49,772 nt of DNA from a virus (Duplodnaviria; Caudoviricetes). The notes under the pieces were generated by a model. It made no database searches, was not told where the DNA came from, and worked only from the letters and a program-made list of their open reading frames with translations. Position 1 is the stretch's first letter. Each line of letters starts with the position of its first letter. The stretch is from IMG/VR virus record IMGVR_UViG_3300025398_000029, positions 1-49,772 of that record; one strand, written 5' to 3'. Both the position numbers and the translations under genes were made by a program. This document shows positions 11,220-37,024 of this stretch, in pieces.

Positions 11220-11228
11220 AGGTGCTCT

Positions 11229-11257
11229 ACGATACACCACGGGGGCAAGAGTGTCAA
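11229..11257 (-). promoter_or_regulatory. sigma70-type promoter of the initiator operon (near-leaderless)
   Basis: TTGACA-N17-TATCGT, 9 nt before the ATG, no SD. Confidence 0.7.
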
Positions 11258-11283
11258 GCGTACACACCCCAGAACATTTGTTT

Positions 11284-11292
11284 TGTTATACT
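11284..11292 (+). promoter_or_regulatory. extended -10 promoter for the recA operon
   Basis: TGTTATACT upstream of the CAGAAAGG RBS. Confidence 0.55.
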
Positions 11293-11314
11293 GTTCATAA
11301 CAGAAAGGTTGCTT

Positions 11315-12337
11315 ATGGCAAAGAAAACATTGAGTGGCAGAGACGCCCTCGAAGCAGTAATGGCTCAAATTGACAAAGACTTTGGCGAAGGTTCAATTGT
11401 TCGATTGAACAGCGAAAAAGTTTTGCCAGTAGAAGTTGTGTCTACGGGTATCTTGCCCCTTGACATGGCGCTTGGCGTTGCGGGCCTTCCCCTGGGGCGC
11501 ATTGTAGAGTTTTACGGACCTCCCTCATCAGGTAAATCAACGCTTGCCATGCACACTATTGCAGAAGCACAAAAGCAAGGCAAGGTCTGCGCGTACATTG
11601 ACGCAGAGCACGCAATTGACCCCAACTACGCAATGGCCTTAGGCGTTGACTTGGACGAACTTCTTTTGTCACAGCCCAGCACCGCTGAAGAAGGGCTTGA
11701 GATTATGATTCGACTGGCAGAGACCGGCATTATTTCTGTCATTGTGGTTGACTCCGTTGCGGCGCTGACGCCTCGAGCGGAACTTGACGGCGAGATGGGC
11801 GACGCCAACGTCGGCTTGCAGGCTCGTTTGATGGGTAAGGCTCTTCGTAAGTTGGCAGGGCCGGCGTTTGATAACAACACGTTGGTTATTTTTATCAATC
11901 AGTTGCGAGAGTCCATTGGCAAGATGTATGGTCCATCCGAGTACACCCCTGGTGGCAAGGCATTGCCCTACTACGCTTCGGTTCGACTTGACATTCGACG
12001 TATCAAAACGATTACCAAGGGCGAAGAAGCAACCGCAAACCGAACCAAGGTAAAGGTCGTCAAGAACAAGGTGGCAGCACCGTACCGCTCTGCCGAGTTT
12101 GACCTTGAGTATGGAGTCGGCGTGCCGAAGGCAAACGCCCTTATTGACTGTGCAACTGACGTAGGCATTTTGCAGTCACGTGGCGCTTGGATTTACTATG
12201 ACGGGGAGCAGTTTGCAAACGGTCGGGCAAAGGCAAAGGCAAAGATTGAAAAAAGCCCTGAGTTGTACGAAGAGTTGTACAAGCGCGTTCTTGCTTTGAT
12301 TAACGTTACCAAGGCTTTGGATGACGACAATGACTGA
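11315..12337 (+). CDS. recA: recombinase A
   Basis: STG.L.LD.ALG..GLP.GRIVE.YGP.SSGKST, YIDAEHA.DP.YA, VVDSVAAL, GLQARLM, INQLRE, PGGKAL, KVVKNKVA.P. Confidence 0.98.
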   Translation: MAKKTLSGRDALEAVMAQIDKDFGEGSIVRLNSEKVLPVEVVSTGILPLDMALGVAGLPLGRIVEFYGPPSSGKSTLAMHTIAEAQKQGKVCAYIDAEHAIDPNYAMALGVDLDELLLSQPSTAEEGLEIMIRLAETGIISVIVVDSVAALTPRAELDGEMGDANVGLQARLMGKALRKLAGPAFDNNTLVIFINQLRESIGKMYGPSEYTPGGKALPYYASVRLDIRRIKTITKGEEATANRTKVKVVKNKVAAPYRSAEFDLEYGVGVPKANALIDCATDVGILQSRGAWIYYDGEQFANGRAKAKAKIEKSPELYEELYKRVLALINVTKALDDDND

Positions 12338-12554
12338 AAAAAACGCACAAAAAAATAATCAAATTAGAATTGCGGAAGCGATTAAAATGTGGTACGTTGG
12401 TCATACGTACGGTCCGAGTTACCGAGACATTTCCCGAATCACCGGTATTTCATTGGGAACTGTCTTCAATGTGTGCAAAGAACTACGAGAATCAAACATC
12501 ATTGAATTAAACGAGAAGGTGGCAAGGTCCATCAAGTTGAAAGGAACAGAGTGA
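12330..12554 (+). CDS. stand-alone LexA-type DNA-binding domain protein
   Basis: YGPSYRDI...TGISLGTV...CKEL.....I......ARSIKL. No peptidase domain. Confidence 0.75.
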   Translation: MTEKNAQKNNQIRIAEAIKMWYVGHTYGPSYRDISRITGISLGTVFNVCKELRESNIIELNEKVARSIKLKGTE

Positions 12555-13585
12555 ACAAAGTAGAGGTTATCCCCGTATGGGATATGAGCAATGATGAATG
12601 GCTGGAAGCCCGTAAGGGCGGCATTGGCGGGTCCGATGCTGGCACAATCATTGGAGTAAATAAGTACAAGTCTGCCTACGCATTGTGGGGCGAGAAGACC
12701 GGCATTATGCCTACTGAATTCAGTGGCAACGATGCAACCGATTGGGGTCACGACCTCGAGCGTCCGGTAGCGGCTCACTACGCACGTAAGCACAATAAGG
12801 CTGTCGTAGAGTGGCCTGTCATTCTTCGCTCGCTTGAAGAAGGTCGGGAATTTATGTTTGCCAACCTTGACTTCTTAATTGTGGAGCCCAGCAACGAATT
12901 TCCTGCTGGCTCAGTGCAGACGTGGCGTTTCACCACCCCGCCCCCCAACGTCGAAGGCATTCTTGAAATTAAGACTGCTGGTATTGCCAGCCCCGGAAAC
13001 CCCGGCGCATGGGCGTACGACAACATTCCTGACAGTTACCGTTTGCAGGGATACCACTACGGAATTGTGGCAGGTTTCCATGAGGTGCCCAAGGTCACGT
13101 TTGCGGCTTTGGTTGGCGGTCAGGGTTTGCAGGTTCGTGAGATGGAATGGAACCAGAACATTGCAGACAACCTTATTGTTGCTGAGGCAGAGTTTTGGGA
13201 GCAGGTCATTACCAAGACTGCGCCCCCCACTGACGGAAGTGAAGCAACTGAAGCGGCTCAGCGCCAGCGTTACCCACACCACGAAGAAGGTAAGTTTGTT
13301 GAAGCAGAGATTGACTTCCTTGCTTTGATTGCAGAGTTTGAAGCCGCTAAGGAAGAAGCCGATGCGGCAGACGCCAAGCGTAAGGCTTTGCGAGCACAAA
13401 TTGTTGAGTTGGTTGGCGATGCTGAATCAGCAAAGTACAACGGCTCCGTTCTTCTTACGTACAAGGCTGGCAAGGAAGTAGAGAGCCTTGACACTGACCG
13501 TATCAAGAAGGAAGCACCAGAAATCTGGGAGCAGTACAAGAAGGTTCGCCCCGGTGCCCGCACTCTTCGAATTAATTCTAAGTAA
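12551..13585 (+). CDS. YqaJ-like viral exonuclease
   Basis: EWL..RK.GIGGSD.G.I.GVNKYKS...LW.EKTG, WGH.LE, ANLD, LEIKT, Y.LQ..HY. Confidence 0.92.
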   Translation: MNKVEVIPVWDMSNDEWLEARKGGIGGSDAGTIIGVNKYKSAYALWGEKTGIMPTEFSGNDATDWGHDLERPVAAHYARKHNKAVVEWPVILRSLEEGREFMFANLDFLIVEPSNEFPAGSVQTWRFTTPPPNVEGILEIKTAGIASPGNPGAWAYDNIPDSYRLQGYHYGIVAGFHEVPKVTFAALVGGQGLQVREMEWNQNIADNLIVAEAEFWEQVITKTAPPTDGSEATEAAQRQRYPHHEEGKFVEAEIDFLALIAEFEAAKEEADAADAKRKALRAQIVELVGDAESAKYNGSVLLTYKAGKEVESLDTDRIKKEAPEIWEQYKKVRPGARTLRINSK

Positions 13586-13590
13586 TGGAC

Positions 13591-13619
13591 TTGACTTGTT
13601 CAAATCCGTGTGCTATTGT
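13591..13619 (+). promoter_or_regulatory. sigma70-type promoter
   Basis: TTGACT-N17-TATTGT. Confidence 0.75.
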
Positions 13620-13647
13620 GATTACACCTCAAACGAAAGGAATGTAA

Positions 13648-14340
13648 ATGAAGAGTGAATCAATTATCAACATAGCGACGGCACTTGCCGCTGCTCAAGG
13701 AGAGTTCTCCGCAGTACCCAAGGGTTCTAGTAACCCATTCTTTAAGAGCAAGTACGCAGCGTTGCCTGACGTAGTTGCAACTGCTACACCCGTGTTGTCT
13801 AAGCATGGTTTGTCGTTTGCTCAGTTTGTTGACTCTGACGAAATTGGCGACTTGCTTACCACGTACCTTATGCACGCTTCGGGTGAGTTTATCAGTCACT
13901 CAATGCGTTTGCACGTTACGAAGGCTAATGACCCACAATCTCAGGGTAGCGCCATTACGTATGCACGTCGCTATTCGCTAATGTCGGCCATTGGTTTGGT
14001 TGCGGACGATGACGATGACGGCAACGCTGCTAGTTTTGCCGCTGATATTGCAGCACGCAAAGCGAGCGGTAACGCAGCAACGCCTACACCCGTAAAGCAG
14101 TCGCTGGACTCTAAGGTTGCAGCCGCAGCCGGTCAGCCTGCACCAGCCAAGCCCACCGGCATGGCTACGGAAAAGATGACCCGTATGATTTGGGCCATCT
14201 GCCACAAGACGCTTAACTACGATGATGCACAGCAGTTTTCGGCTGTCTCTGGTGTCATCGGGCGTGAAATTAATGACCTCAATAAGTTGACCTTTGATGA
14301 GGCCAAGAGTGTCATCGAATACCTACAGTCGATTCAATAA
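13648..14340 (+). CDS. erf: ERF-family ssDNA annealing protein
   Basis: NPFFKSKYA.L, HGL, H.SGE, Q..GSAITYARRYSL....GL..DDDDGN. Confidence 0.95.
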   Translation: MKSESIINIATALAAAQGEFSAVPKGSSNPFFKSKYAALPDVVATATPVLSKHGLSFAQFVDSDEIGDLLTTYLMHASGEFISHSMRLHVTKANDPQSQGSAITYARRYSLMSAIGLVADDDDDGNAASFAADIAARKASGNAATPTPVKQSLDSKVAAAAGQPAPAKPTGMATEKMTRMIWAICHKTLNYDDAQQFSAVSGVIGREINDLNKLTFDEAKSVIEYLQSIQ

Positions 14341-14355
14341 CAGAAAGGAATTAAA

Positions 14356-14766
14356 ATGTCATCAACCATTACCATCACGGGCAACATTACCCGAGACCCG
14401 GAATTGAAATTCTCTCAGGGGGGCGTTGCCACGGTTCGTTTTGGCCTTGCAGAAACCTATAAGAGCAAGGAAAAGGAACACACCAGTTTTTACGACGTTG
14501 TTGCCTTTGGCAAGAACGCGGAGAACGTTCACGCTTCTTTGGTCAAGGGCTCTAACGTCATTGTCAAGGGTCGTCAAGAGGTTCGTGAATACGAGCGCAA
14601 CGACGGCACTAAGGGCACCAGCGTTCAAGTTGTCGCTGACGAAGTTGGCGCATTGCTTCGCTTTGCTACGGTTTCAATTCAGAAGAACGAGCGCACTGCG
14701 GCTCCGGGCTTCAATCAGGGCGGCGGCTCCAGCAGCAACGCTCCCTGGGACGACGACCAGTTCTAG
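14356..14766 (+). CDS. ssb: single-stranded DNA-binding protein
   Basis: ITGN.TRDPELKF, AEN...SL.KG..VIV.GR, acidic DDDQF tail. Confidence 0.96.
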   Translation: MSSTITITGNITRDPELKFSQGGVATVRFGLAETYKSKEKEHTSFYDVVAFGKNAENVHASLVKGSNVIVKGRQEVREYERNDGTKGTSVQVVADEVGALLRFATVSIQKNERTAAPGFNQGGGSSSNAPWDDDQF

Positions 14767-27935: not shown

Positions 27936-29171
27936 TTAGATTCCTAGTCTGCCCCCCTGGCGCGGACCTTCCTTAATTGCAATAAGGTTGGCGCAGACAT
28001 AAGGGATATTGTTTGCTTGGTGCCACTCGCTTGGGAAGTGAGTGAAAAGTTGGCTTACTTGAAAGTTGCAAGTAATTTCTGGGACAAACCGGCGAAACTG
28101 GTCGTCTGTCCAATACCAAAAACTGTTTTCGTTGTAAAACGCAACGTGCGTAGGGTCTTGGAAGGCGCCTCGGCCATCGGTGCTGGGGGTAAGGCTAAGG
28201 ACCATGCCGCCGTGGGCAAGAACCCGGTGAAACTCATTCCACAATCGAATCTTATCTGAAATGTGTTCGCAGAAATCAACGGCTCGAATAACGCCTACAG
28301 AATTGTCTTCCATGTCGCCCAGCACGTTAAAAATGTCGCCTAAGAAATCAGCAGGCTCATTAAGGTCGACGGTTTTGTAACCGGGTGCAGGATTGTGCGC
28401 CCCACCAAGGTCAAGAGCCAAAAGACCTTCATCTTCGGCCCACTTCAACAAAAGGGGCTGAATGGTTTGCCCATGAAGACGCACAGTTTCTTCTTGAATA
28501 AACTTGTTGGTCTCTGGGTCTTTTTGCGTGTTTAGCGTGTGTACACGTTGGTAGTACAAACACTTTTCAATGTGGTGAAAGCCGCCAATCAAGTAAAGAC
28601 GCGTCATCAAATCTTGGTCGTCAAGAACTTTTTTTGAAGAATCGTATCCGCCCGCAGTGTCGTACGCAAACTTTAAAAAAGCGCGGACATGATTGGGGGC
28701 ATACCAAATGTAAGAAACATTGTGCGGACTAGGCTCGAGGCCCTTGCAGACCAAATGCTCACCCTCTTGATAGTATTCCCAACCAAATGATTCATCAAAT
28801 CGCTGGTGGTTTGGGGTGCCGTCTTCGTTAATTTGAGCAAAGTCAGAGTAAGCAAAGACAGTGTAAGGGTCCTTGAAAACGTTTTGAATTTCTTCTAGAG
28901 CGTTGGGGGCAAGCAAGTCGTCGTGGTCAAGTTCCACAAGAATCCTGCCGGAACAAAGTTCAACGGCATGACGCTTCAGTGCGCCTACGCCTTGCAGTTT
29001 TTCATCTGCATACGCAACTCGAACACGGTCGTCCCACTCTGGACGAGACCACTCAGCGCCACCATTAAGGAGAACAATCCATTCCCAATTCTCAATTGTT
29101 TGCGCTTTTAGAGAAGCGTAGCAATCATCTAAGAATTTAGAGTTATGGCTTGGCGTAAATACACTAATCAT
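27936..29171 (-). CDS. GT2 glycosyltransferase fused to class I SAM methyltransferase-like domain
   Basis: ISVFTPSH, EWIV, ELDHDD, DD.DL. C-terminal LDLGG, EH, L..GG, DPTH. Confidence 0.9.
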   Translation of the reverse strand: MISVFTPSHNSKFLDDCYASLKAQTIENWEWIVLLNGGAEWSRPEWDDRVRVAYADEKLQGVGALKRHAVELCSGRILVELDHDDLLAPNALEEIQNVFKDPYTVFAYSDFAQINEDGTPNHQRFDESFGWEYYQEGEHLVCKGLEPSPHNVSYIWYAPNHVRAFLKFAYDTAGGYDSSKKVLDDQDLMTRLYLIGGFHHIEKCLYYQRVHTLNTQKDPETNKFIQEETVRLHGQTIQPLLLKWAEDEGLLALDLGGAHNPAPGYKTVDLNEPADFLGDIFNVLGDMEDNSVGVIRAVDFCEHISDKIRLWNEFHRVLAHGGMVLSLTPSTDGRGAFQDPTHVAFYNENSFWYWTDDQFRRFVPEITCNFQVSQLFTHFPSEWHQANNIPYVCANLIAIKEGPRQGGRLGI

Positions 29172-29214
29172 GTCGTTCCCCTCAGAGCGGCAGTAAATGC
29201 CCCATCATACAAAC

Positions 29215-29243
29215 ATAATACACCATATAGGTTAAAAAATCAA
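29215..29243 (-). promoter_or_regulatory. internal sigma70-type promoter upstream of the GT2-MTase gene
   Basis: TTGATT-N17-TATTAT. Confidence 0.6.
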
Positions 29244-29247
29244 GGAT

Positions 29248-29445
29248 TTACATAAAAGAAAAGAATCCGGCGGACGAAGTAACGGGAGTTGCCGTAACAA
29301 AGAAAATGCCGGGAAACATTACAGTTCCTTGATTGCTCCAATACCGCTCGCCGTTTGTGCCGGTTGAGGCAACGCTGTTGTACGGAGGAAGAACGGTTCC
29401 TTGTTCACGCCAGTACCTAAGTGCGTTTGGGTTGGGGGAAGCCAT
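29248..29445 (-). CDS. small protein with an internal repeat
   Basis: RYW..QGTV..P occurs twice. Confidence 0.6.
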   Translation of the reverse strand: MASPNPNALRYWREQGTVLPPYNSVASTGTNGERYWSNQGTVMFPGIFFVTATPVTSSAGFFSFM

Positions 29446-31403
29446 TAGACAATTGCTCCAAAGTTAAGAGTGCCCGTGCCCGCGGTGTCTTTAGACGTAA
29501 TTTGCAAAGCAATGTAACCCTGTTTGGTTGGGGTAATAGATGAAAATGTCAACGTTTGCCAAGAGCCGGACGTAGTGTTTGAAAGAGTCTGAGCCGCAAC
29601 GCCAAGTTCAGGGTTTGCCAAAATGCTGACAGTTGACGTACCTGTAAAACTCTGCAACACTTGAACTGCAAATGTATGCGCAACGGAGTCAACTGCAATG
29701 TAGACAATTTGGTCTCCAGGGCCTACAAGTTTTCCCGAGGCGGTGTAGCCAGATGGATAGTTTGTAAGGTCTTGCACGGCAAAGTCGTGTCGCTCTGCGT
29801 ATCCAATGGTGTACTTTGATGAGCCTCCACCAGAGGGCCTAGGACGGTTTAAAACGTCGTAGGTGGGCGTTGGCGTAACGGTTCCCGCGTAAGTGATACT
29901 GGCATTGCCAAAACCCAACAACGGGGATACATTGCTGGGGGAAGCAAAGGGCCTAATTTGATTTGAGATTTTTGACCATTGACCAAAATCAATGGCAGGC
30001 GAAGAACCGCTTGGACTGCCAGTGTAGGTTTGATAGGAGGTTCCGGCCAGTGTTATTCCGCTAAGAGCGCTACCGCCAAACCATTGGTTGTATCCAGCAT
30101 CAGTAATAGCGTTAGGAGTACCGCTTCCGTAACCGCCATAAACAGCACCAGAAATAAAAGAATTAGAAACGTTTGCAATTCCTACTGCTGTTGTGGCAGA
30201 AGAATAAACACCTTGCGCTGCGCCAAAAATTGTGCAGTTATTTATGTAACACATGTTTGCATATTGCAAAGAACCGTTTGTTCTTACCCAAATTGCAGCA
30301 TGGTTGGAACCACCCCAGCCCATAATAAGGCTATTTTGAATGACAATAGAGCCACCAAAAGAAAAATACGGAGTTATTACTGCGTTGTTTGCTGTTCCCT
30401 TTCCAACTAAAAGGCAACGGTCATATAAAACATATGGAACAAAACCCGTTCCGTAACCGTTAGACATTGTAATATTAGAAGAAGATGCCATTCCGTTAAA
30501 AACGCAATCTTGAAAAACTAATTGGCCAAACATATACCAAGTAGTGCTGGTGCTATAAGACAAAGAACCAGGGTTATTGAAACCGGCTGTAAAAGTCAAG
30601 ACGTTTGATGTGTTAGAGGTAACAAGACAGGTTACGTTACCAACTTCAAATATGTAGCCTGCCCATTGATTTGTTGCCCAACTAACGCCACCGATTGTAA
30701 GAGTTGTTGAGGTGTTTGAAATTATTTGAGTTCCACTAGTAGCGGGTAGTTGTGAGGTCTGAAAAATAAAACCGTTTGTAGTGCTTGTGCCAGTTCCGCC
30801 AATCCAAGTAATGTTTGAAATGGTGGTTTGAGTTGTGTAAAAAAGAGCACATTGCCCAGCATATCCAGTTACCCCAGTGTCGGCGGTAAACCAAGTTGCT
30901 ACCACCTCCCCAGCATCTCCTGTGTAGGCGCCAGTAACGTCACCAATTACGTTTAAATTTATTCCGCTGAAGAAGGCAGCGGTAGAATACCGATAAACAC
31001 CAGCGCCTACATAAATAGTAATAGTTGGAGAGTTCACCGTATTTGCATATATTGGGTTTACCGCCGAGTTAGGAAGAGCGGCAGTAATTGTGGCAAAGGG
31101 TCCACCAACATTAAAAGTAAGTCCTGTTGTGCCAGTAAAACTGGCTCCATAAACGTAAGAAATTGTTACAGTTGTTGCGGAAGTGTACGCAGTTATAAGA
31201 TACCAAGAACCATTGTTAATGTTTACGTTTTGCCCAACCATTGAAGCGGTAAAAACGCTTGCAAGGGAAACAAGGGTAGTGCTGTTTGAGCCCGCGGCGG
31301 TGGTGCTAGTTGCCAAAATGGTTGGAGAGGTTCCACCATTTGCCGTATCAGATGCACTGGCGTAGTTGCTTGTATTGCGAACATAATAAGTAGTTGCGGC
31401 CAT
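29445..31403 (-). CDS. virion appendage with pectin-lyase-like beta-helix
   Basis: TYYV, GPFATI..A, IYVG.GVY, repeated I.N../C.F turns. Confidence 0.65.
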   Translation of the reverse strand: MAATTYYVRNTSNYASASDTANGGTSPTILATSTTAAGSNSTTLVSLASVFTASMVGQNVNINNGSWYLITAYTSATTVTISYVYGASFTGTTGLTFNVGGPFATITAALPNSAVNPIYANTVNSPTITIYVGAGVYRYSTAAFFSGINLNVIGDVTGAYTGDAGEVVATWFTADTGVTGYAGQCALFYTTQTTISNITWIGGTGTSTTNGFIFQTSQLPATSGTQIISNTSTTLTIGGVSWATNQWAGYIFEVGNVTCLVTSNTSNVLTFTAGFNNPGSLSYSTSTTWYMFGQLVFQDCVFNGMASSSNITMSNGYGTGFVPYVLYDRCLLVGKGTANNAVITPYFSFGGSIVIQNSLIMGWGGSNHAAIWVRTNGSLQYANMCYINNCTIFGAAQGVYSSATTAVGIANVSNSFISGAVYGGYGSGTPNAITDAGYNQWFGGSALSGITLAGTSYQTYTGSPSGSSPAIDFGQWSKISNQIRPFASPSNVSPLLGFGNASITYAGTVTPTPTYDVLNRPRPSGGGSSKYTIGYAERHDFAVQDLTNYPSGYTASGKLVGPGDQIVYIAVDSVAHTFAVQVLQSFTGTSTVSILANPELGVAAQTLSNTTSGSWQTLTFSSITPTKQGYIALQITSKDTAGTGTLNFGAIV

Positions 31404-31412
31404 TGTCTATCC

Positions 31413-33080
31413 TTACGCTACTGCCACGCATCGCCATTTTGATGTTTCGGTGTTCCAAAAGAAACCAACGTCAAGGCGTGTTGTGCTAGTGGTTGTTGTA
31501 GGAAGTGTAGCAGTTGAAGGCTCAAACTTTGTTCCCCATGTCAATGGAATGCCAGTAGTTCCAGTAACGCTGATTCGCAAAGTGTCTCCATCAACAGGGG
31601 TGCCAGTGAGGTTTGTGGTAAACGACGTAATGGCCGCAGTTTGCGCCGTAATGTGTACAACATCGTAAGAGTCTGTGTTTATTGTGGGCGTGGCAGAGTT
31701 TGCAGAAAGAGAAAGAATTCGTTTGGTAATTCGTTTGTTGGTAACAGTTTGTGCCGCAGTGGTTCCTACAATCTGCTGAGCAATAGCCGCAGGGTCGTAA
31801 GTAGTTGTGGACATGTTGCCCGAACCAGCAGTACCTTGTGGACCCTGTAGCCCTACGTTCCCAGCAACGCTCATTGACCAACTAGAAAATGATATGGAAT
31901 ATGAGGATACGTTTGCCGGGGTCGTTGACGACCAGTTGCCAGTAAACGTCAAGGTTGTTGCGTTGTTGGATGTAACCGTAGCGGTAGTGGTTCCAACCGT
32001 TACAACAGCGCCAACCCAAATATTTGTTGGCCAAGTGTAGGCGGATTGTACAAGAGTTGTTGCAGTAATTGTTGTAGAGACACCGGTTCCATAAGCGTTG
32101 TTACCAATTGTGTCAATGGTTACGTTTGTGTTGTTACCAAAACCACCTGTGGGGCCGGTATTTATTCCTTCTACATAAACGCTAGTAGATGAAGTAGCAA
32201 CAAGGCGAACTCTTCCTCCGGTTTGATATGCGGTAATTGAATAAGAACCTACGGTGCTATTGCTAAAATTAAAACTACCCAATTGAGGCGCAAATGAGTT
32301 TGTTGGAACAAAAATATATCCATAACCTTGGAAGCCTTGAGAACCCGTAACGCCTTGTGGCCCTGGAAGACCATCGGTGCTAAAAGTCCATGGCCCGGCG
32401 GTTGTTGCAGTTCCGTTTGTTGTGTCTATAAGTACGGTAATGGATGAGTTCGCCGTTAATGCTGTTATTGTTCCAGACGCCCAAGTAGTAGGTAGTGATG
32501 TAAGGGCGGCACGAACACGTTGACCAACTGCAAAAGCACCACTATTAGAAACGGCCCAGGTTAAAGAATATGTACCGGTAGATAATGTATTTTGGGTAAT
32601 TGATGTTACGCCGTAATAACCAATTCCCTGGTAGCCCTGCGGCCCCTGCGGCCCGGTAACAGCCTGCCCTTGATAGCCCTGAGGGCCTTGAGGAACAGAA
32701 AAATTAAACACTGCCGTACTTTGTGAGCCAGAATTAGTAACCGAAGCGCCAGTTGCATAGGAGACGGTAGAAGTCGTTCCAACGTTTACCGTTGCTGCGC
32801 TGCCTTGGTAGCCTTGGTAGCCCTGTTGTCCAACGACAGCGGTAACCCAAGAGCCGATGTTTAGCGGCGTGGATGTTGTAATGCCCGCTGATGAAGCAAC
32901 AACAAATTGCGTTGAGTTGGTAATGCTTGAGATGGTTGTGTTGATTCCGTAAGTGGCGTTTTCAACGTACATACCAGTCGTAAGGTTGGCGGTGCTTGAA
33001 ACGGTAATTGTTGTGCCTGACACGGCGGTTGGCGTAAACGGCGAACCTGTAGCAGGGACAAAATATTTCAACTGAGACAT
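31413..33080 (-). CDS. collagen-like tail fibre
   Basis: GYQ/GPQ triplets, T/S-rich domains, C-terminal ...KWRCVAVA domain. Confidence 0.75.
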   Translation of the reverse strand: MSQLKYFVPATGSPFTPTAVSGTTITVSSTANLTTGMYVENATYGINTTISSITNSTQFVVASSAGITTSTPLNIGSWVTAVVGQQGYQGYQGSAATVNVGTTSTVSYATGASVTNSGSQSTAVFNFSVPQGPQGYQGQAVTGPQGPQGYQGIGYYGVTSITQNTLSTGTYSLTWAVSNSGAFAVGQRVRAALTSLPTTWASGTITALTANSSITVLIDTTNGTATTAGPWTFSTDGLPGPQGVTGSQGFQGYGYIFVPTNSFAPQLGSFNFSNSTVGSYSITAYQTGGRVRLVATSSTSVYVEGINTGPTGGFGNNTNVTIDTIGNNAYGTGVSTTITATTLVQSAYTWPTNIWVGAVVTVGTTTATVTSNNATTLTFTGNWSSTTPANVSSYSISFSSWSMSVAGNVGLQGPQGTAGSGNMSTTTYDPAAIAQQIVGTTAAQTVTNKRITKRILSLSANSATPTINTDSYDVVHITAQTAAITSFTTNLTGTPVDGDTLRISVTGTTGIPLTWGTKFEPSTATLPTTTTSTTRLDVGFFWNTETSKWRCVAVA

Positions 33081-33503
33081 TTACCGCCCCTCTCCAATAA
33101 GTTCTAAAGTCATTTGCAACTCTTCTTTAACGGTCAATCCAGCCGGAATACGCAAATCAAAATGACTTGGAATTTCCCACATTGCGTTTGTGTCTTGAAA
33201 TTTAGATTCTTTAACTCGGTCTACCCAAATTAAAAAATCCGGCTTACCAAATGATTCGCAAGTTTCTTTGGTCGGGCACACAAAATCAACCACAACATTA
33301 TGACCTTGTTCTTGAAACATGCGAGCCATGCCGCCAAGACGCCGTGCTTGCTCTACGCGGTCGGCTAAAGAAAAGCCAAGGTCATTGCTTACATGTTTGC
33401 GCACTGCATCAGCGTTTATATGTATTGCGTTAATCCACTCAGAGACTGCACTTGCAAGAGTAGTTTTGCCCGCTCCAGGCAATCCAATTATTTGGATAAT
33501 CAT
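33081..33503 (-). CDS. cysC: adenylyl-sulfate (APS) kinase-like P-loop kinase
   Basis: IIGLPGAGKTTLA, NAD.VR....DLGFS..DR.EQARR, DFVCPT. Confidence 0.82.
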   Translation of the reverse strand: MIIQIIGLPGAGKTTLASAVSEWINAIHINADAVRKHVSNDLGFSLADRVEQARRLGGMARMFQEQGHNVVVDFVCPTKETCESFGKPDFLIWVDRVKESKFQDTNAMWEIPSHFDLRIPAGLTVKEELQMTLELIGEGR

Positions 33504-34165
33504 TTTCCGTCCCAAAATAATTCTGGGGTGTTGTAAATTTCGTAATCAAGCGGGCTCAAATTGTTTAGATAATCTATTTGGTCGCTTGTCAAGGAACCAT
33601 AAATTATTGATGAAGCGTCTGTTGTGTTTATGGGGTCATCATTGTCGTAATTAAAGCAATAGCGAAACGTTTCACTTGAACCAAAATCTTGCAAAATGCG
33701 ATTGCCTAATATTTCTACAGACTTTAAAGGAAACTGGTCATCACGCAAAAATAGATTTATTCTTGCTATGCGACGCATAACTTCATCACGGTCAACTTGA
33801 ATTGACAAAAAATCTGGATTGTCAATGAACATTGACATTGTTATGTTTTCGCTTGGAACAAACAAAAGATTTTTTGATTGATAGTCAGACAACACATCTT
33901 TATTTTTTTCAAACCAAGACAAAAAATCATCTACCGTAGGGTTGTTATTTTTGTAAGTGTATTGACTAACCGTTCGAGCGGCGGGTTCGCGCCAAGAAGA
34001 AACAAGGTAAGTTTCATCGTCTACGTTTTGCCATGCTGCGTGAAAACCGTATTGAAGGTTAAGGTTTGCAACCTCTGGCATCAATTCGCAAACATTAATC
34101 AAAACCCTAACGCGCACAAAAGAACCGCCAGTTTTGGGTGTGTGAATGTGATAAATCTTGTTCAT
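33500..34165 (-). CDS. sulfotransferase (Sulfotransfer_2-like)
   Basis: 5'-PSB H.PKTGGS, 3'-PB REP..R.VS.Y, C-terminal LD.EIY. Confidence 0.8.
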   Translation of the reverse strand: MNKIYHIHTPKTGGSFVRVRVLINVCELMPEVANLNLQYGFHAAWQNVDDETYLVSSWREPAARTVSQYTYKNNNPTVDDFLSWFEKNKDVLSDYQSKNLLFVPSENITMSMFIDNPDFLSIQVDRDEVMRRIARINLFLRDDQFPLKSVEILGNRILQDFGSSETFRYCFNYDNDDPINTTDASSIIYGSLTSDQIDYLNNLSPLDYEIYNTPELFWDGK

Positions 34166-35013
34166 GCTGACACCAAATTTGAAAGAATTCCTTGAGTGGT
34201 TGACAACGTTAAATACGAAACAATAACAATTCCAGAGCCACCGGAACCGTTGCCTATATTAGTATTAAAAACGCTGTCGCCTCCGCCACCGCCACCCGTA
34301 TTAGGTGTTGCGTTTAAGCCAGAACCGCCAACTGCCCCTCCACCCAAACCACCTGCTCCACCAGTTCCGCCACCGTCTCCGCCACCGCCACCGCCACCGT
34401 AGTAAACGGTACTGCCAGTGATGTTAGATGTTACGCCGTTTCCACCGGCTCCACCGTTGGTGGTCCCAGCGTTATTGGAACCAACATTTCCCGCACCACC
34501 GCCACCTGCGCCACCACCAACTACGGTATTTAATCCACCGTCATGGCCGCCGGGGGCGCCAGTTCCATTAGGAAAAGGATAGAAACCATAACCGCCACCG
34601 CCGCTACCGCCACCAGCAGTGCTGCTACTTCCGCTGATTCCGTTTTGGGCAACTCCGTTTCCTGAACCACCATAACCGCCGCCTCCGGCAGTTACTCCTG
34701 CAAAAGAAGAACTACCGCCATTGTTGTTTGCGCCAACGCCAGCGCCACCAAGCCCAACAACAACCGGCATACTTCCAGTAAGGGTAACGCCGCTAAGGGC
34801 AACAACGCCGCCTGCGCCACCGCCCCCACCACGACCGTTATAAGAACCTTTAGAAAAATCACCCCCACCAGAACTGCCGCCGCCAACAATGAGGACGGTT
34901 GCTCCCGATAATGTGCCTGAGCAAACAAGGGTGTCGGATTGTTTAAAGGTAATTACGGTGTAAGGACCGTTGGTAGAAACAATGCCATGTGTAGTGGTAA
35001 AAGCAAAAGCCAT
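34162..35013 (-). CDS. glycine-rich virion protein
   Basis: L.VGGG..GG, GGGGAGG, YYGGGGGG, NTGGGGGG, GGSGIVIV.Y. Confidence 0.8.
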   Translation of the reverse strand: MAFAFTTTHGIVSTNGPYTVITFKQSDTLVCSGTLSGATVLIVGGGSSGGGDFSKGSYNGRGGGGGAGGVVALSGVTLTGSMPVVVGLGGAGVGANNNGGSSSFAGVTAGGGGYGGSGNGVAQNGISGSSSTAGGGSGGGGYGFYPFPNGTGAPGGHDGGLNTVVGGGAGGGGAGNVGSNNAGTTNGGAGGNGVTSNITGSTVYYGGGGGGGDGGGTGGAGGLGGGAVGGSGLNATPNTGGGGGGDSVFNTNIGNGSGGSGIVIVSYLTLSTTQGILSNLVSA

Positions 35014-35014
35014 G

Positions 35015-37024
35015 TTATACGTAGCCTACACAACGCCATTTAGATGTTGCCCCGTTGTAAATAAATCCAACAGTAATTGGAGAAACAGTCGAACCGTTAG
35101 AAAAACCCGGCGGGGCAACTGCGCTTGATTCCGTGTTTGACCAAGACAAGGTTGCTGGAGAAGCAGAAAAATCGTAGAACCTAACAACAAGAGATTGTCC
35201 GTCTATGGCGCCCGTTGATGAAATGGTAATTGCTACCGTAAGGTTAGACGTATTGGTAATTTTAACGGAAGTATTGGAACCAACTGTTACGGTAAGCAAA
35301 CCGCTGCTAGGGACGGATGATGTACCGACCTGAGGCAAATACCCACCCTGGTAGCCTTGCGGCCCCTGCGTACCGTTTCCAGCAGCAGTTTGGTCAAGCC
35401 AAAGAAGTGTTGTGTCTGATGGGGGTACGCCAGTGTTAGTGGTAACAACGCCTTGAATACCTTGGTATCCTTGTGCTCCTTGGTAGCCCTGGTAGCCTTG
35501 TGAGCCAACTGCACCCGTAAGAAAAAGAGTATTTGGGCTACGAGTTACACCGTCACCAATTGAATAGTCAACCGTAAAAATAACGTAGGCGCTTGACGGA
35601 AACGTTCCATCTACAGTTGTCAAAATGCCTTCTGCATAGTTTGTTGTAGGCGCAGATTGAGCACAAATGCGAACTCGCTGACCAACCTGAAGAGCACCAA
35701 AGCCGTAAGGATTTCCACTGTTGAATGGAGTGGAGATTGTTAACGTTGTTCCGACAAGACTTGCCCCATAGGCAATGCCTTGATTGTTTACAACTGGCGT
35801 GTACCCAACACCTTGATATCCTTGCGGAACCGTAAAGTTAAGAACCGCTGCGGAGGAGGAGCCTGAGTTGGTTACGCTTGCTTGCGTACCTTGCGCACCC
35901 GTAGTGGTTGTTCCAACTGAAACAGTTGCCGCGGTGCCAGAAGTTCCAGCAGTACCCTGTGGACCTTGGGGGACGGAAAAGTTGAATACTGCGGCACTTT
36001 GTGAGCCAGAGTTGGTTACTGAAGCCGGCGTACCATATGGAACAGTTGTGGTTGTGCCAGCATTGACCGTTGCAGCCGCTCCTGTCGAACCTTGCGGACC
36101 AGTTGCGCCGGTAGCGCCAGTTGCGCCAGTTGCGCCAGTTACACCCTGCGGGCCAGAGAAAGCAATTTGTTGAATGGCAAACAATACAGAGTCGCCGGCA
36201 GGAACAGTCGGACCGGTTTGCGCTGGGACTGCGTAAATACTAACATTGCTTGACGATGGGGCCCAGCAAAGTTGGTAGTAATCGCCAGCGTTTGCCGGAA
36301 TGCTGAACGTTGCCGTTGCAAGAGCGGTGCCGTTAGTGCCAGAATGTGAACCTGTAATCGTTGTATAAATATTTGTTGTTGGTACGTCAACGCCGTTAAG
36401 TCGAATCCACAAGTCGGCGTTAGCAATTTGCGTGCCGCTATTGGCAAACATCACTTGGTATGTTAGGGTGTAGTTTCCAGCGTTGTTAATCTGCACGGCA
36501 GAGCCCGCAGTGGCTGCATTTGTGCCAAACGTTGTTGAGCCAGGATTAAGAAGCGTCATACCGTTGCCAAACGCGGTGTTATGAATGGCAACAAGGTTTA
36601 CAGAACTTGTAGAGCCCGTTTGGCTTGTTGTGTCATAAAATCCTGACCAGTACGCGTTTGTGCCGCCAACACCCTGTGGGCCCTGTGGGCCTTGTGGACC
36701 TTGAGTGCCGCTTCCCCCACCGCCAAAACCAATAAAACTGTGCACGATTGGCGTATTGTTGATGTTGAATGTTAACGAACAAGGGGTACCAATGGGAGGT
36801 GCAACAGAACCTGGGTATGGCAAAGGACCCCAAACCTGAGTGCCACTCAAGTTGGGGATTGTGATTGTCATATTGCCAGCAGTAATTGCGCCGTCGCCAG
36901 TGCTGACGTCGGTTTGAACTACAACACCGTAATACGTGCCTTCAAATTGGCGACCAGAGGCAAATATGTTTCCTTGCCATTTTAACTGGTGCTGTAAAAG
37001 TGTAAGTGCGTCTTGGCTTCTCAT
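35015..37024 (-). CDS. baseplate spike (gpV-like N-terminus) fused to collagen-like fibre
   Basis: Y.GVV.......IP.L......GP.PYPG...PP.G..C...F N-terminus, directly after the hub gene. GPQ/GAT/GYQ triplets and a C-terminal KWRCVGYV domain. Confidence 0.7.
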   Translation of the reverse strand: MRSQDALTLLQHQLKWQGNIFASGRQFEGTYYGVVVQTDVSTGDGAITAGNMTITIPNLSGTQVWGPLPYPGSVAPPIGTPCSLTFNINNTPIVHSFIGFGGGGSGTQGPQGPQGPQGVGGTNAYWSGFYDTTSQTGSTSSVNLVAIHNTAFGNGMTLLNPGSTTFGTNAATAGSAVQINNAGNYTLTYQVMFANSGTQIANADLWIRLNGVDVPTTNIYTTITGSHSGTNGTALATATFSIPANAGDYYQLCWAPSSSNVSIYAVPAQTGPTVPAGDSVLFAIQQIAFSGPQGVTGATGATGATGATGPQGSTGAAATVNAGTTTTVPYGTPASVTNSGSQSAAVFNFSVPQGPQGTAGTSGTAATVSVGTTTTGAQGTQASVTNSGSSSAAVLNFTVPQGYQGVGYTPVVNNQGIAYGASLVGTTLTISTPFNSGNPYGFGALQVGQRVRICAQSAPTTNYAEGILTTVDGTFPSSAYVIFTVDYSIGDGVTRSPNTLFLTGAVGSQGYQGYQGAQGYQGIQGVVTTNTGVPPSDTTLLWLDQTAAGNGTQGPQGYQGGYLPQVGTSSVPSSGLLTVTVGSNTSVKITNTSNLTVAITISSTGAIDGQSLVVRFYDFSASPATLSWSNTESSAVAPPGFSNGSTVSPITVGFIYNGATSKWRCVGYV

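What the first reader, a model, noticed from the sequence alone, without database searches (positions are those of the whole stretch)
27936..35013. Candidate virion glycosylation-methylation-sulfation system embedded in the tail-fibre operon
Seen: between spike and baseplate genes lie a sulfotransferase and an APS kinase, ATGA-coupled to each other and to the Gly-rich virion gene, and directly followed by a collagen-like fibre. A GT2-methyltransferase fusion follows three genes later. Known: APS kinase makes PAPS, the sulfotransferase donor, and some actinophages glycosylate their virion proteins with their own GTs. The surrounding structural proteins are extremely Ser/Thr-rich, and the collagen triplets are unusual Gly-Tyr-Gln runs (QGYQGYQG). 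Inference: the phage builds a sulfated/methylated glycan coat, or sulfates Tyr, on its fibres and tail, changing charge, adhesion or protease resistance. I know of no experimentally described sulfated phage virion. This is my best candidate for a novel system.
Basis: partly seen in the sequence, partly recalled or inferred. Interest (0 to 1): 0.8.

Follow-up and report, generated by a model that had tools for sequence, protein, structure and literature searches.

The report
Phage sulfation cassette among fibre genes
An uncultured phage of actinobacteria carries, wedged between its fibre genes, a sulfotransferase-fold gene coupled to a shortened APS-kinase gene; related phages keep the pair together, usually near fibre-like genes, so it likely adds sulfate to sugars on the phage's own fibres, an untested kind of phage particle decoration.

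Summary
The genes and the ATGA overlaps are real. The 221-aa protein is a sulfotransferase: confident model, nearest to heparan-sulfate 6-O/2-O enzymes (Z 12.4/12.1; tyrosylprotein enzymes 6.7-6.9). The 140-aa kinase keeps the APS-binding residues but lacks most of the lid. The pair is a mobile cassette: the kinase is directly adjacent in 9 of 11 members of this sulfotransferase clade (0 of 25 outside), under purifying selection, and sits among collagen-like or Ser/Thr-rich genes at several genome positions. No cysH was found in 6 kinase-bearing genomes, so the usual 'assimilatory AMG' label fits poorly. The GT2-methyltransferase is not tied to the pair (2 of 30 groups; a complete relative with the same tail module lacks both enzymes). 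Gly-Tyr-Gln is not enriched where the enzymes occur. Best reading (about 0.5): sulfation of sugars on virion fibres. The acceptor is not shown, no APS source was found in this 57%-complete record, and cultured phiRSL1 has a similar pair in a DNA-modification cluster. The scan noted the same idea earlier on other genomes (unchecked notes). New variant of virus-encoded virion glyco-tailoring; interest 0.6.

The parts
35015..37024 (-). Spike-position protein extended by a fibre-like, Ser/Thr-rich C-terminal part with short GxQ runs (669 aa); candidate acceptor
   Evidence: Position after the hub gene; PHROG tail-fibre hits; relatives have a 149-164-aa protein in this place; composition. The spike label is inferred from position and N-terminal likeness to those relatives.
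34162..35013 (-). Gly-rich virion-type protein (283 aa), ATGA-coupled to the sulfotransferase; candidate acceptor
   Evidence: PF21722 E 2.9e-16; overlap read
33500..34165 (-). PAPS-dependent O-sulfotransferase of the Sulfotransfer_2 / heparan-sulfate 6-O/2-O type (221 aa); no membrane segment predicted; GC 0.372
   Evidence: Invariant H8 K11 G14 H42 R59 P61 S67; profile to PDB 5t03 E 7.7e-6; 10 of 23 family members hit PF03567 at E<=0.05; model pLDDT 92.4; Z 12.4 and 12.1; hydropathy and GC
33081..33503 (-). Shortened APS-kinase-like protein (140 aa): APS-binding residues kept, most of the lid missing, no fused nucleotidyltransferase
   Evidence: PF01583 E 3.8e-15; APS kinases lead the PDB hits; K13 T14 D32 R35 F44 R49 invariant, with the spacing of M. 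tuberculosis CysC D480/R483/F492/R497
31413..33080 (-). Fibre protein (555 aa, 32% Ser+Thr, short GxQ runs, shared C-terminal tip domain); candidate acceptor
   Evidence: PHROG 3030 tip E 5e-16; a protein with the same N-terminus follows the kinase in G002; composition
29445..31403 (-). 652-aa Ser/Thr/Gly-rich protein of no known family, probably a virion appendage
   Evidence: No Pfam, PHROG, NCBIfam or significant PDB sequence hit; 26% Ser+Thr
29248..29445 (-). 65-aa ORF of no known family
29215..29243 (-). Promoter-like element in front of the GT2-methyltransferase gene, kept in 5 phages with this tail module whatever gene lies upstream
   Evidence: Consensus scan (region-wide count not above shuffles); alignment of upstream regions; similar motif at window 11233 in front of the replication genes. 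Activity not shown.
27936..29171 (-). GT2 glycosyltransferase fused to a class I methyltransferase (411 aa); a widespread phage gene, not bound to the sulfation pair
   Evidence: chondroitin synthase E 5.5e-12; 80 related loci; full-length homologue in cyanophage S-CRM01, 40.6% identity
27264..27935 (-). gp25-like baseplate wedge; downstream boundary of the variable slot
   Evidence: PF04965 E 2.4e-7

Best explanation
The sulfotransferase and the shortened APS kinase form a translationally coupled, mobile two-gene cassette that is predicted to turn APS into PAPS and likely transfers the sulfate to sugar hydroxyls on the phage's own Ser/Thr-rich fibre proteins during assembly in the cytoplasm. 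Shown: fold, catalytic motifs, coupling, purifying selection, placement among fibre-like genes. Inferred: (1) late co-expression with the fibre genes; (2) APS from the host, or from an HxGH nucleotidyltransferase that is fused to the kinase in most relatives but was not found in this record; (3) a sugar acceptor, from the nearest solved folds and from glycosyltransferase and NDP-sugar neighbours; (4) the virion as target; (5) the GT2-methyltransferase, or another glycosyltransferase, as source of the glycan, which is possible here but not obligatory. The likely effect is negative charge on appendages that are otherwise almost uncharged (Asp+Glu+Lys+Arg about 3-5%), altering adhesion, aggregation or proteolysis.
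For: Fold nearest to heparan-sulfate 6-O and 2-O sulfotransferases, Z 12.4 (rmsd 4.3, 194 aligned) and 12.1, next row 8.9. PAPS-binding and catalytic motif residues invariant in 23 of 23. Kinase residues that hold the sulfate of APS invariant in 21 of 21. Stop-start overlap between the two genes in 7 of 7 pairs read; dN/dS 0.12-0.21 in 4 gene pairs. Kinase adjacent in 9 of 11 clade members against 0 of 25 outside; fibre-like gene within 6 genes in 9 of 11 against 7 of 25. The cassette lies among collagen or Gly-rich genes at different positions: behind the spike (window), between capsid and head-tail genes (G002), behind the lysis genes (G011). Clade members L219, L221 and L228 place a glycosyltransferase (PF04488) or an NDP-sugar dehydratase directly upstream. 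In complete G006 the same slot holds two GT2-TPR proteins, one resembling SunS peptide glycosyltransferases (E 1.3e-14, below cut-off). No membrane segment predicted in the three enzymes.
Against: No acceptor is shown; gene position is the only link to the virion. Fibres do not need the cassette: 1 of 15 groups sharing the fibre tip domain has it nearby, and complete G006 lacks it. No APS-making gene in the window or the 6.9-kb extension (record 57% complete). The kinase scores far below NCBIfam APS-kinase cut-offs (56.5 against 138.7 bits) and lacks the lid, whose closure is essential in M. tuberculosis CysC. The same kinase family sits with a Sulfotransfer_2 gene in a DNA-modification cluster in phiRSL1, with a sulfotransferase-like gene outside the tail operon in Salvo, and in glycan islands of SAR11 cells, so the pair serves several targets. 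18 of 25 sulfotransferase groups outside the clade have no fibre-like gene within 6 genes. The clade's support (92/83) is below the starred level and the window's branch is long.
Confidence: 0.5

Rival explanations
1. The pair sulfates a host cell-envelope glycan or glycolipid precursor on the cytoplasmic side, masking the receptor or changing the surface of the infected cell.
For: The same short kinase lies beside sulfotransferases and glycosyltransferases in glycan islands of SAR11 single-cell genomes L198, L200, L203. The fold is carbohydrate-type. The GT2-methyltransferase has its own promoter-like element.
Against: The pair is translationally coupled inside fibre operons and moves with fibre genes between genome positions; no transporter, flippase or membrane segment is seen in the three window enzymes.
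Confidence: 0.2
2. The pair sulfates a small molecule (metabolite, signal or defence messenger), and its place among fibre genes only reflects a recombination-prone island under a strong late promoter.
For: Kinase loci of large actinophages also hold Trp halogenase, 2OG oxygenases, carbamoyltransferase and DUF2061. The sulfotransferase gene has low GC, 0.372 against 0.484.
Against: Small-molecule sulfotransferases score Z 7.5 or less against 12 for glycan enzymes. The window's clade keeps fibre-like neighbours in 9 of 11 cases across very divergent sequences.
Confidence: 0.13
3. The pair sulfates a sugar on hypermodified phage DNA.
For: Cultured phiRSL1 has the short kinase, three TAGT glycosyltransferases, a Sulfotransfer_2 gene, an HMUDK_hel gene and a thymidylate-synthase-family gene in one run.
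Against: No thymidylate-synthase family gene in 5 of 5 clade-bearing records, one 97% complete; no TAGT in 4 of 4, while the phiRSL1 control rang; none among the window ORFs scanned. The phiRSL1 sulfotransferase fits another subfamily better. The window and most of these records are incomplete.
Confidence: 0.07
4. The sulfotransferase sulfates Tyr (or Ser/Thr) of the GxQ fibres directly, with no glycan.
For: GYQ triplets occur in both flanking fibres, and collagen genes directly precede the sulfotransferase in L084, L086, L087 and L358.
Against: Tyr is 11.4% of 1183 GxQ triplets in loci with the enzymes and 16.0% of 407 without, and alternates with Phe; 0 of 9 GYQ have Asp/Glu within 5 residues; complete G006 has a fibre with 7 GYQ and no such enzymes; tyrosylprotein sulfotransferases score Z 6.7-6.9.
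Confidence: 0.06
5. The kinase is an auxiliary metabolic gene (cysC) that boosts host assimilatory sulfate reduction, as phage cysC is usually read.
For: This is the published reading of freshwater phage cysC (passages of PMC10914622, 10.1101/655167, 10.1101/2021.01.05.425418).
Against: No PAPS reductase in the window or in 5 other kinase-bearing records, two of them at least 90% complete; a sulfotransferase lies in the locus in 14 of 25 kinase groups and adjacent in 11; the two genes are coupled here.
Confidence: 0.04

Closest known systems
Megavirinae fibril-glycosylation clusters with SAT/APS kinase and sulfotransferase (Moumouvirus australiensis ma457/ma461, Cotonvirus ORF724/725; PMC10117803, passages read)
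   Same: A virus encodes PAPS supply plus a sulfotransferase beside glycosyltransferases, proposed to sulfate sugars on virion fibrils.
   Different: Giant viruses of amoebae with a full 624-642-aa PAPS synthase and their own NDP-sugar pathways; the authors state that validation is needed. Here a tailed phage has a 140-aa kinase and a two-gene mobile cassette.
Mycobacteriophage virion glycosylation (Che8, Corndog, Myrna; Freeman et al. 2023, known only through passages of PMC12363180, PMC11256854, PMC12619734; the paper itself was not available)
   Same: Phages of Actinomycetota glycosylate their own virion proteins with phage-encoded glycosyltransferases.
   Different: The targets reported are capsid and tail tube; no sulfation is mentioned in the passages seen; the window's GT2-methyltransferase had no mycobacteriophage match in the phage collection.
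Heparan-sulfate 6-O- and 2-O-sulfotransferases (PDB 5t03, 3f5f; Sulfotransfer_2 type)
   Same: Fold and PAPS-binding motifs.
   Different: 13-15% identity; no membrane segment; shorter; acceptor unknown.
APS kinase CysC (PF01583; M. tuberculosis CysC, PMC4373884, passages read)
   Same: P-loop Lys/Thr, catalytic Asp, both sulfate-binding Arg and one stacking Phe at identical spacing.
   Different: Most of the roughly 30-residue lid, with Arg559/Lys562, is missing; in 68 of 80 related loci the kinase is fused to an NMNAT-like HxGH nucleotidyltransferase rather than to Sat or CysN.
Phage cysC read as an assimilatory-sulfate AMG (PMC10914622; 10.1101/655167; 10.1101/2021.01.05.425418; passages read)
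   Same: APS-kinase-like genes in freshwater phages. Whether their genes are this short family was not checked.
   Different: Here the partner is a sulfotransferase, and no cysH was found in 6 records.

Membership tests
PAPS-dependent sulfotransferase (Sulfotransfer_2 / HS 6-O and 2-O type) | 5'-phosphosulfate-binding loop with Lys, and 3'-phosphate-binding Arg...Ser motif | tested here: met
   H8/K11/G14 and R59/P61/S67 invariant in 23 of 23, at least 90% in 144 rows; they align with the same motifs of 5t03 and 3f5f
PAPS-dependent sulfotransferase (Sulfotransfer_2 / HS 6-O and 2-O type) | Sulfotransferase fold | tested here: met
   Model pLDDT 92.4; Z 12.4 and 12.1 over 194-195 residues; top BFVD hit a phage sulfotransferase, E 1.6e-7
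PAPS-dependent sulfotransferase (Sulfotransfer_2 / HS 6-O and 2-O type) | Pfam PF03567 above cut-off | tested here: inconclusive
   The window protein has no hit; 10 of 23 family members hit at E<=0.05; L002 scores 24.5 against the cut-off of 22
PAPS-dependent sulfotransferase (Sulfotransfer_2 / HS 6-O and 2-O type) | Sulfuryl transfer to a carbohydrate | not testable with these tools
   Needs an assay
Tyrosylprotein sulfotransferase system (TPST / RaxST type) | Closest fold is a TPST | tested here: not met
   TPSTs were aligned and listed at Z 6.7-6.9, against 12.4 for HS6ST
Tyrosylprotein sulfotransferase system (TPST / RaxST type) | Acidic residues around the acceptor Tyr (feature recalled, from no call) | tested here: not met
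   0 of 9 GYQ have Asp/Glu within 5 residues
APS kinase (CysC) | P-loop, catalytic Asp, two sulfate-binding Arg, adenine-stacking Phe | tested here: met
   K13 T14 D32 R35 F44 R49 invariant in 21 of 21; mapped on K456 S457 D480 R483 F492 R497
APS kinase (CysC) | Lid with the Arg559 and Lys562 equivalents | tested here: not met
   Profile alignments to solved APS kinases break between position 83 and about 100; only about 6 residues separate the fourth strand from the second Phe/Tyr. An Arg or Lys before that Phe might substitute; not tested.
APS kinase (CysC) | NCBIfam apsK cut-off | tested here: not met
   56.5 bits against 138.7; Pfam PF01583 cut-off is passed, 56.7 against 21.1
APS kinase (CysC) | APS + ATP to PAPS activity | not testable with these tools
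   Needs an assay
Phage virion glycosylation system (Che8 type) | Phage-encoded glycosyltransferase | tested here: met
   GT2 with DxD motif, PF00535 E 1.3e-13
Phage virion glycosylation system (Che8 type) | Homology to the mycobacteriophage enzymes | tested here: inconclusive
   tblastn against 50,697 phage records listed 11 matches, none a mycobacteriophage; no structure comparison was made
Phage virion glycosylation system (Che8 type) | Glycans on virion proteins | not testable with these tools
   Needs virion glycoproteomics
Phage DNA hypermodification cluster | Hydroxymethylase or TET-associated glycosyltransferase in the genome | tested here: inconclusive
   None in 5 (PF00303) and 4 (PF20691) clade-bearing records, but only one is at least 90% complete and the window is 57% complete; TET/JBP was not searched genome-wide
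Assimilatory sulfate-reduction AMG set | PAPS reductase (cysH) in the same genome | tested here: inconclusive
   0 of 6 records, two of them at least 90% complete, controls 14 of 14; the host could supply cysH

The most novel reading that the evidence does not exclude
Freshwater actinophages build heparan-sulfate-like, sulfated glycans on their own fibres with a lid-less mini APS kinase, fused in most relatives to an NMNAT-like domain that acts as a minimal ATP sulfurylase. That would be a sulfated phage virion, and many phage 'cysC' AMGs would be sulfation-donor genes for phage macromolecules, including DNA in phiRSL1.
Probability: 0.4. Interest if true: 0.85.

Novelty: new variant of a known kind. 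Interest (0 to 1): 0.6.

Why it matters
If true, phages would chemically tune the charge of their virion appendages with a modification known from animal extracellular matrix, which bears on host recognition, adsorption to particles and persistence in water. Independently of the target, the coupling to a sulfotransferase and the absence of cysH argue that a gene often counted as evidence for virus-driven sulfur assimilation serves sulfation instead. The enzymes are small, predicted soluble and directly assayable; the 250-aa kinase-nucleotidyltransferase fusion is a candidate minimal PAPS synthase.

Tried and rejected
Single-sequence fold of the sulfotransferase: pLDDT 34.5, not used; refolded with 144 rows. 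Foldseek against the PDB gave no match at E<=0.001, with the same heparan-sulfate enzymes on top. Word-index homologue search found only 2 proteins. tblastn of the sulfotransferase against cultured phages: no match at E<=1. Search for RNA data: no RNA holder listed. Search for the nucleotidyltransferase domain: none in the window or extension L208, none in G001-G005, G013, G014 (control G012 rang); all these records are partial, and the 69,441-bp contig of the same phage could not be searched; a DNA pattern search for a leftward extension found nothing. The promoter/terminator scan as a whole was not above shuffles (22 against 18.3 +/- 4.1); only the one conserved element was kept. The 652-aa protein gave no family. 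Rejected: Tyr sulfation inferred from GYQ; an obligate three-enzyme system; Ser/Thr richness as specific evidence. No complex prediction was run. Literature searches that found no description of a phage sulfotransferase acting on virions or DNA: 2 unrelated listings; 3 unrelated; 0; 0; 10 of 15 listed, none on phages; the library lacks most subscription papers. No supplementary files were read; gene tables there could show the cysC-sulfotransferase link.
Full report
Setting. The window is the whole record G000, a linear virus record of 49,772 bases estimated 57% complete. WhiB and Rpf-like transglycosylase genes point to an actinobacterial host (inference from family knowledge). The finding lies in a long minus-strand run of tail genes, between a hub/spike pair and the gp25 wedge and baseplate genes.

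Observation. The Gly-rich gene, sulfotransferase and kinase are joined by ATGA overlaps, the fibre start follows the kinase stop without a gap, and the GT2-methyltransferase is the third gene after the fibre. The collagen-like runs are short here: at most 9 and 6 Gly-X-Y triplets, with 9 GYQ in all.

The sulfotransferase. It has no Pfam hit of its own. The Atlas placed it beside Sulfotransfer_2 clusters (feature score 0.96, family on 22% of members). A 23-sequence alignment shows invariant H8, K11, G14, H42, R59, P61 and S67; its profile hits heparan-sulfate 6-O-sulfotransferase (E 7.7e-6) and then the 2-O enzyme. A model from 144 sequences has pLDDT 92.4. Against 48,161 solved chains the best matches are the same two enzymes (Z 12.4, rmsd 4.3, 194 aligned; Z 12.1, rmsd 3.9, 195 aligned); other glycan sulfotransferases follow at 8.2-8.9 and tyrosylprotein sulfotransferases at 6.7-6.9. 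The fold is shown; a carbohydrate acceptor is inferred.

The kinase. APS kinases lead all comparisons. In M. tuberculosis CysC, Asp480 is the proposed base, Arg483 and Arg497 hold the sulfate of APS, and Phe492 stacks on the adenine (passages of PMC4373884). D32, R35, F44 and R49 have the same spacing and are invariant in 21 of 21 aligned phage proteins. Against that, most of the lid is absent, lid closure is essential in CysC, and the protein scores 56.5 against the NCBIfam cut-off of 138.7. It therefore likely works as an APS kinase but is not a standard member. In 68 of the 80 best viral loci (of 580 confirmed) it is fused to an HxGH nucleotidyltransferase domain, which resembles CTP_transf_like/NMNAT proteins and is a candidate APS source (untested). 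Sister phages L086 (fused) and L087 (solo) show that the domain is gained or lost easily. It was not found in the window or the 6.9-kb extension.

The pair is a cassette. After merging kinases at 90% identity, 14 of 25 groups have a sulfotransferase in the fetched locus and 11 have one adjacent. A group counts if any member does, one group holds 33 loci, and the profiles were built from neighbours of these same loci, which favours this set. From the other side, 36 of 37 sulfotransferase groups were put in a tree (L098 left out because its gene is in two pieces). The window's protein falls in an 11-row clade (support 92/83, below the starred level; long branch) in which 9 have the kinase directly adjacent, against 0 of 25 outside, and 9 have a collagen-like, Gly-rich or Ser/Thr-rich gene within six genes, against 7 of 25 outside. 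The stop-start overlap is kept in 7 of 7 pairs read, and dN/dS is 0.12-0.21 in the four gene pairs in which synonymous sites were not saturated, of six computed. The cassette sits at different places: behind the spike here; between major capsid and head-tail genes in G002, again followed by a fibre with the same N-terminus and by the GT2-methyltransferase; and between long collagen genes behind the lysis genes in G011, which shares this tail module. The fibres may thus be head or neck appendages as well as tail fibres. L219, L221 and L228 place a PF04488 glycosyltransferase or an NDP-sugar dehydratase immediately upstream. The sulfotransferase gene has GC 0.372 against 0.484 for the window, as expected of an acquired gene.

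The GT2-methyltransferase is a separate unit. Of its 80 best loci (of 111), 6 hold the pair, that is 2 of 30 groups. To remove the profile bias, 88 of 95 same-strand neighbour representatives from the other loci, plus one longer protein, were scanned against Pfam: none was a sulfotransferase or APS kinase (opposite-strand clusters and proteins outside 160-400 aa were not scanned, and Pfam also misses the window's own enzyme). Many loci are short contigs. G006, a complete 78.9-kb relative with the same tail module, has neither kinase nor this sulfotransferase family; in the same slot it carries two GT2-TPR genes. Five phages with this tail module keep a promoter-like element in front of the GT2-methyltransferase whatever lies upstream, and a similar motif precedes the replication genes. 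The largest groups place the gene between lysis and recombination genes, and cyanophage S-CRM01 has a full-length homologue in a non-structural region. It may supply a methylated glycan that the sulfotransferase acts on here, but the data do not make it part of one system; I put that at about 0.25.

Tyr sulfation. Tyr is not enriched in GxQ triplets where the enzymes occur (11.4% of 1183 against 16.0% of 407), alternates with Phe, and lacks acidic neighbours in 9 of 9 cases; G006 has seven GYQ without the enzymes. The triplet counts include near-duplicate proteins. The fibre tip domain occurs in 15 groups, of which only the window's own has the pair nearby. Ser/Thr richness and GYQ are therefore features of these fibres, not signs of sulfation.

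Other uses of the same kinase. Among cultured phages (19 records), phiRSL1 has it in a run with three TAGT glycosyltransferases, a Sulfotransfer_2 gene, an HMUDK_hel gene and a thymidylate-synthase-family gene, which reads as DNA hypermodification. Salvo has a kinase-nucleotidyltransferase fusion three genes from a weak Sulfotransfer_4 hit (E 6e-4), on the strand opposite to the tail genes. SAR11 single-cell genomes have it in glycan islands, or beside a separate nucleotidyltransferase. The partner is again a sulfotransferase, but the target varies. For the window's clade, no thymidylate-synthase family gene was found in 5 records and no TAGT in 4, and no PAPS reductase in 6 kinase-bearing records including the window; most are incomplete.

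Mechanism. Shown: a sulfotransferase fold with intact motifs, a kinase with the APS-recognition set, coupling, selection and placement. Inferred: late expression, PAPS formation, a sugar acceptor, and the virion fibres as target (0.5). Rivals: host envelope (0.2), small molecule or hitch-hiking (0.13), DNA (0.07), direct Tyr/Ser/Thr sulfation (0.06), assimilatory AMG (0.04).

Comparison with print. Phage cysC is described as an assimilatory AMG (passages of PMC10914622, 10.1101/655167 and 10.1101/2021.01.05.425418; the last two contain no occurrence of 'sulfotransferase'). Mycobacteriophages glycosylate capsid and tail tube (passages of citing papers; the original was not available). The nearest analogue is the Moumouvirus australiensis cluster with SAT/APS kinase and sulfotransferase, whose authors say validation is needed (passages of PMC10117803). 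Host-mediated methylation of phage tail proteins appears in a search listing only (PMC13445384). Searches found no description of a sulfated phage virion, in a library that lacks most subscription papers; no supplements were read. Seven earlier notes of this scan propose the same idea on other genomes; they are unchecked and are not counted as evidence.

Verdict. A real, conserved phage sulfation cassette, most likely aimed at virion appendages; a new variant of virus-encoded virion glyco-tailoring, not yet a demonstrated system. Interest 0.6.

Noticed in passing
L205:6989-14348 (phiRSL1, NC_010811.2, ORF238-ORF230): Short APS kinase, three TAGT glycosyltransferases, two nucleotidyltransferase-type genes, a Sulfotransfer_2 gene, an HMUDK_hel gene and a thymidylate-synthase-family gene in one run: a candidate pathway for sulfated-sugar DNA hypermodification in a cultured phage. 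Searches found nothing on it.
   Followed up: partly
L086:8654-9409, L040:4543-5301 and 66 further kinase loci; L199:4995-5793, L202:4995-5776: The short kinase is fused to, or in SAR11 adjacent to, a roughly 115-aa HxGH nucleotidyltransferase, often followed by DUF2061: a candidate minimal PAPS synthase.
   Followed up: partly
L204:5644-7735 (Xylella phage Salvo) and L206:6980-8423 (RsoM2USA): Cultured phages with the short kinase near a sulfotransferase-like gene outside the tail operon (Salvo gp29 weak PF17784 hit; the RsoM2USA neighbour had no Pfam hit).
   Followed up: partly
L112:2-1923 and L190:3-245 (G006): Two GT2-TPR genes, one resembling SunS peptide glycosyltransferases, fill the slot between spike and GT2-methyltransferase where the window has fibres and the sulfation pair.
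   Followed up: partly
window 29215-29243 and around 11233-11260, - strand: Similar promoter-like motifs precede the GT2-methyltransferase and the leftward replication genes; the first is kept in 5 related phages.
   Followed up: partly
L015, L058, L100, L102, L231, L251 and related loci: Large freshwater actinophages carry islands of tailoring enzymes: Trp halogenase, many 2OG oxygenases, Asp/Asn hydroxylase, DUF6065, carbamoyltransferase and several sulfotransferase types.
   Followed up: no
window 11222-14766: The phage encodes RecA together with YqaJ, ERF and SSB, i.e. both a RecA and an exonuclease/annealase set; G011 has RecA, YqaJ and ERF as well.
   Followed up: no
L098:7980-8698: The sulfotransferase gene is in two pieces (125 + 112 aa) in this record, by frameshift or assembly error; L085 has it whole.
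   Followed up: no
window 29445-31403: 652-aa Ser/Thr/Gly-rich protein with no family or solved relative; not folded for lack of jobs.
   Followed up: partly
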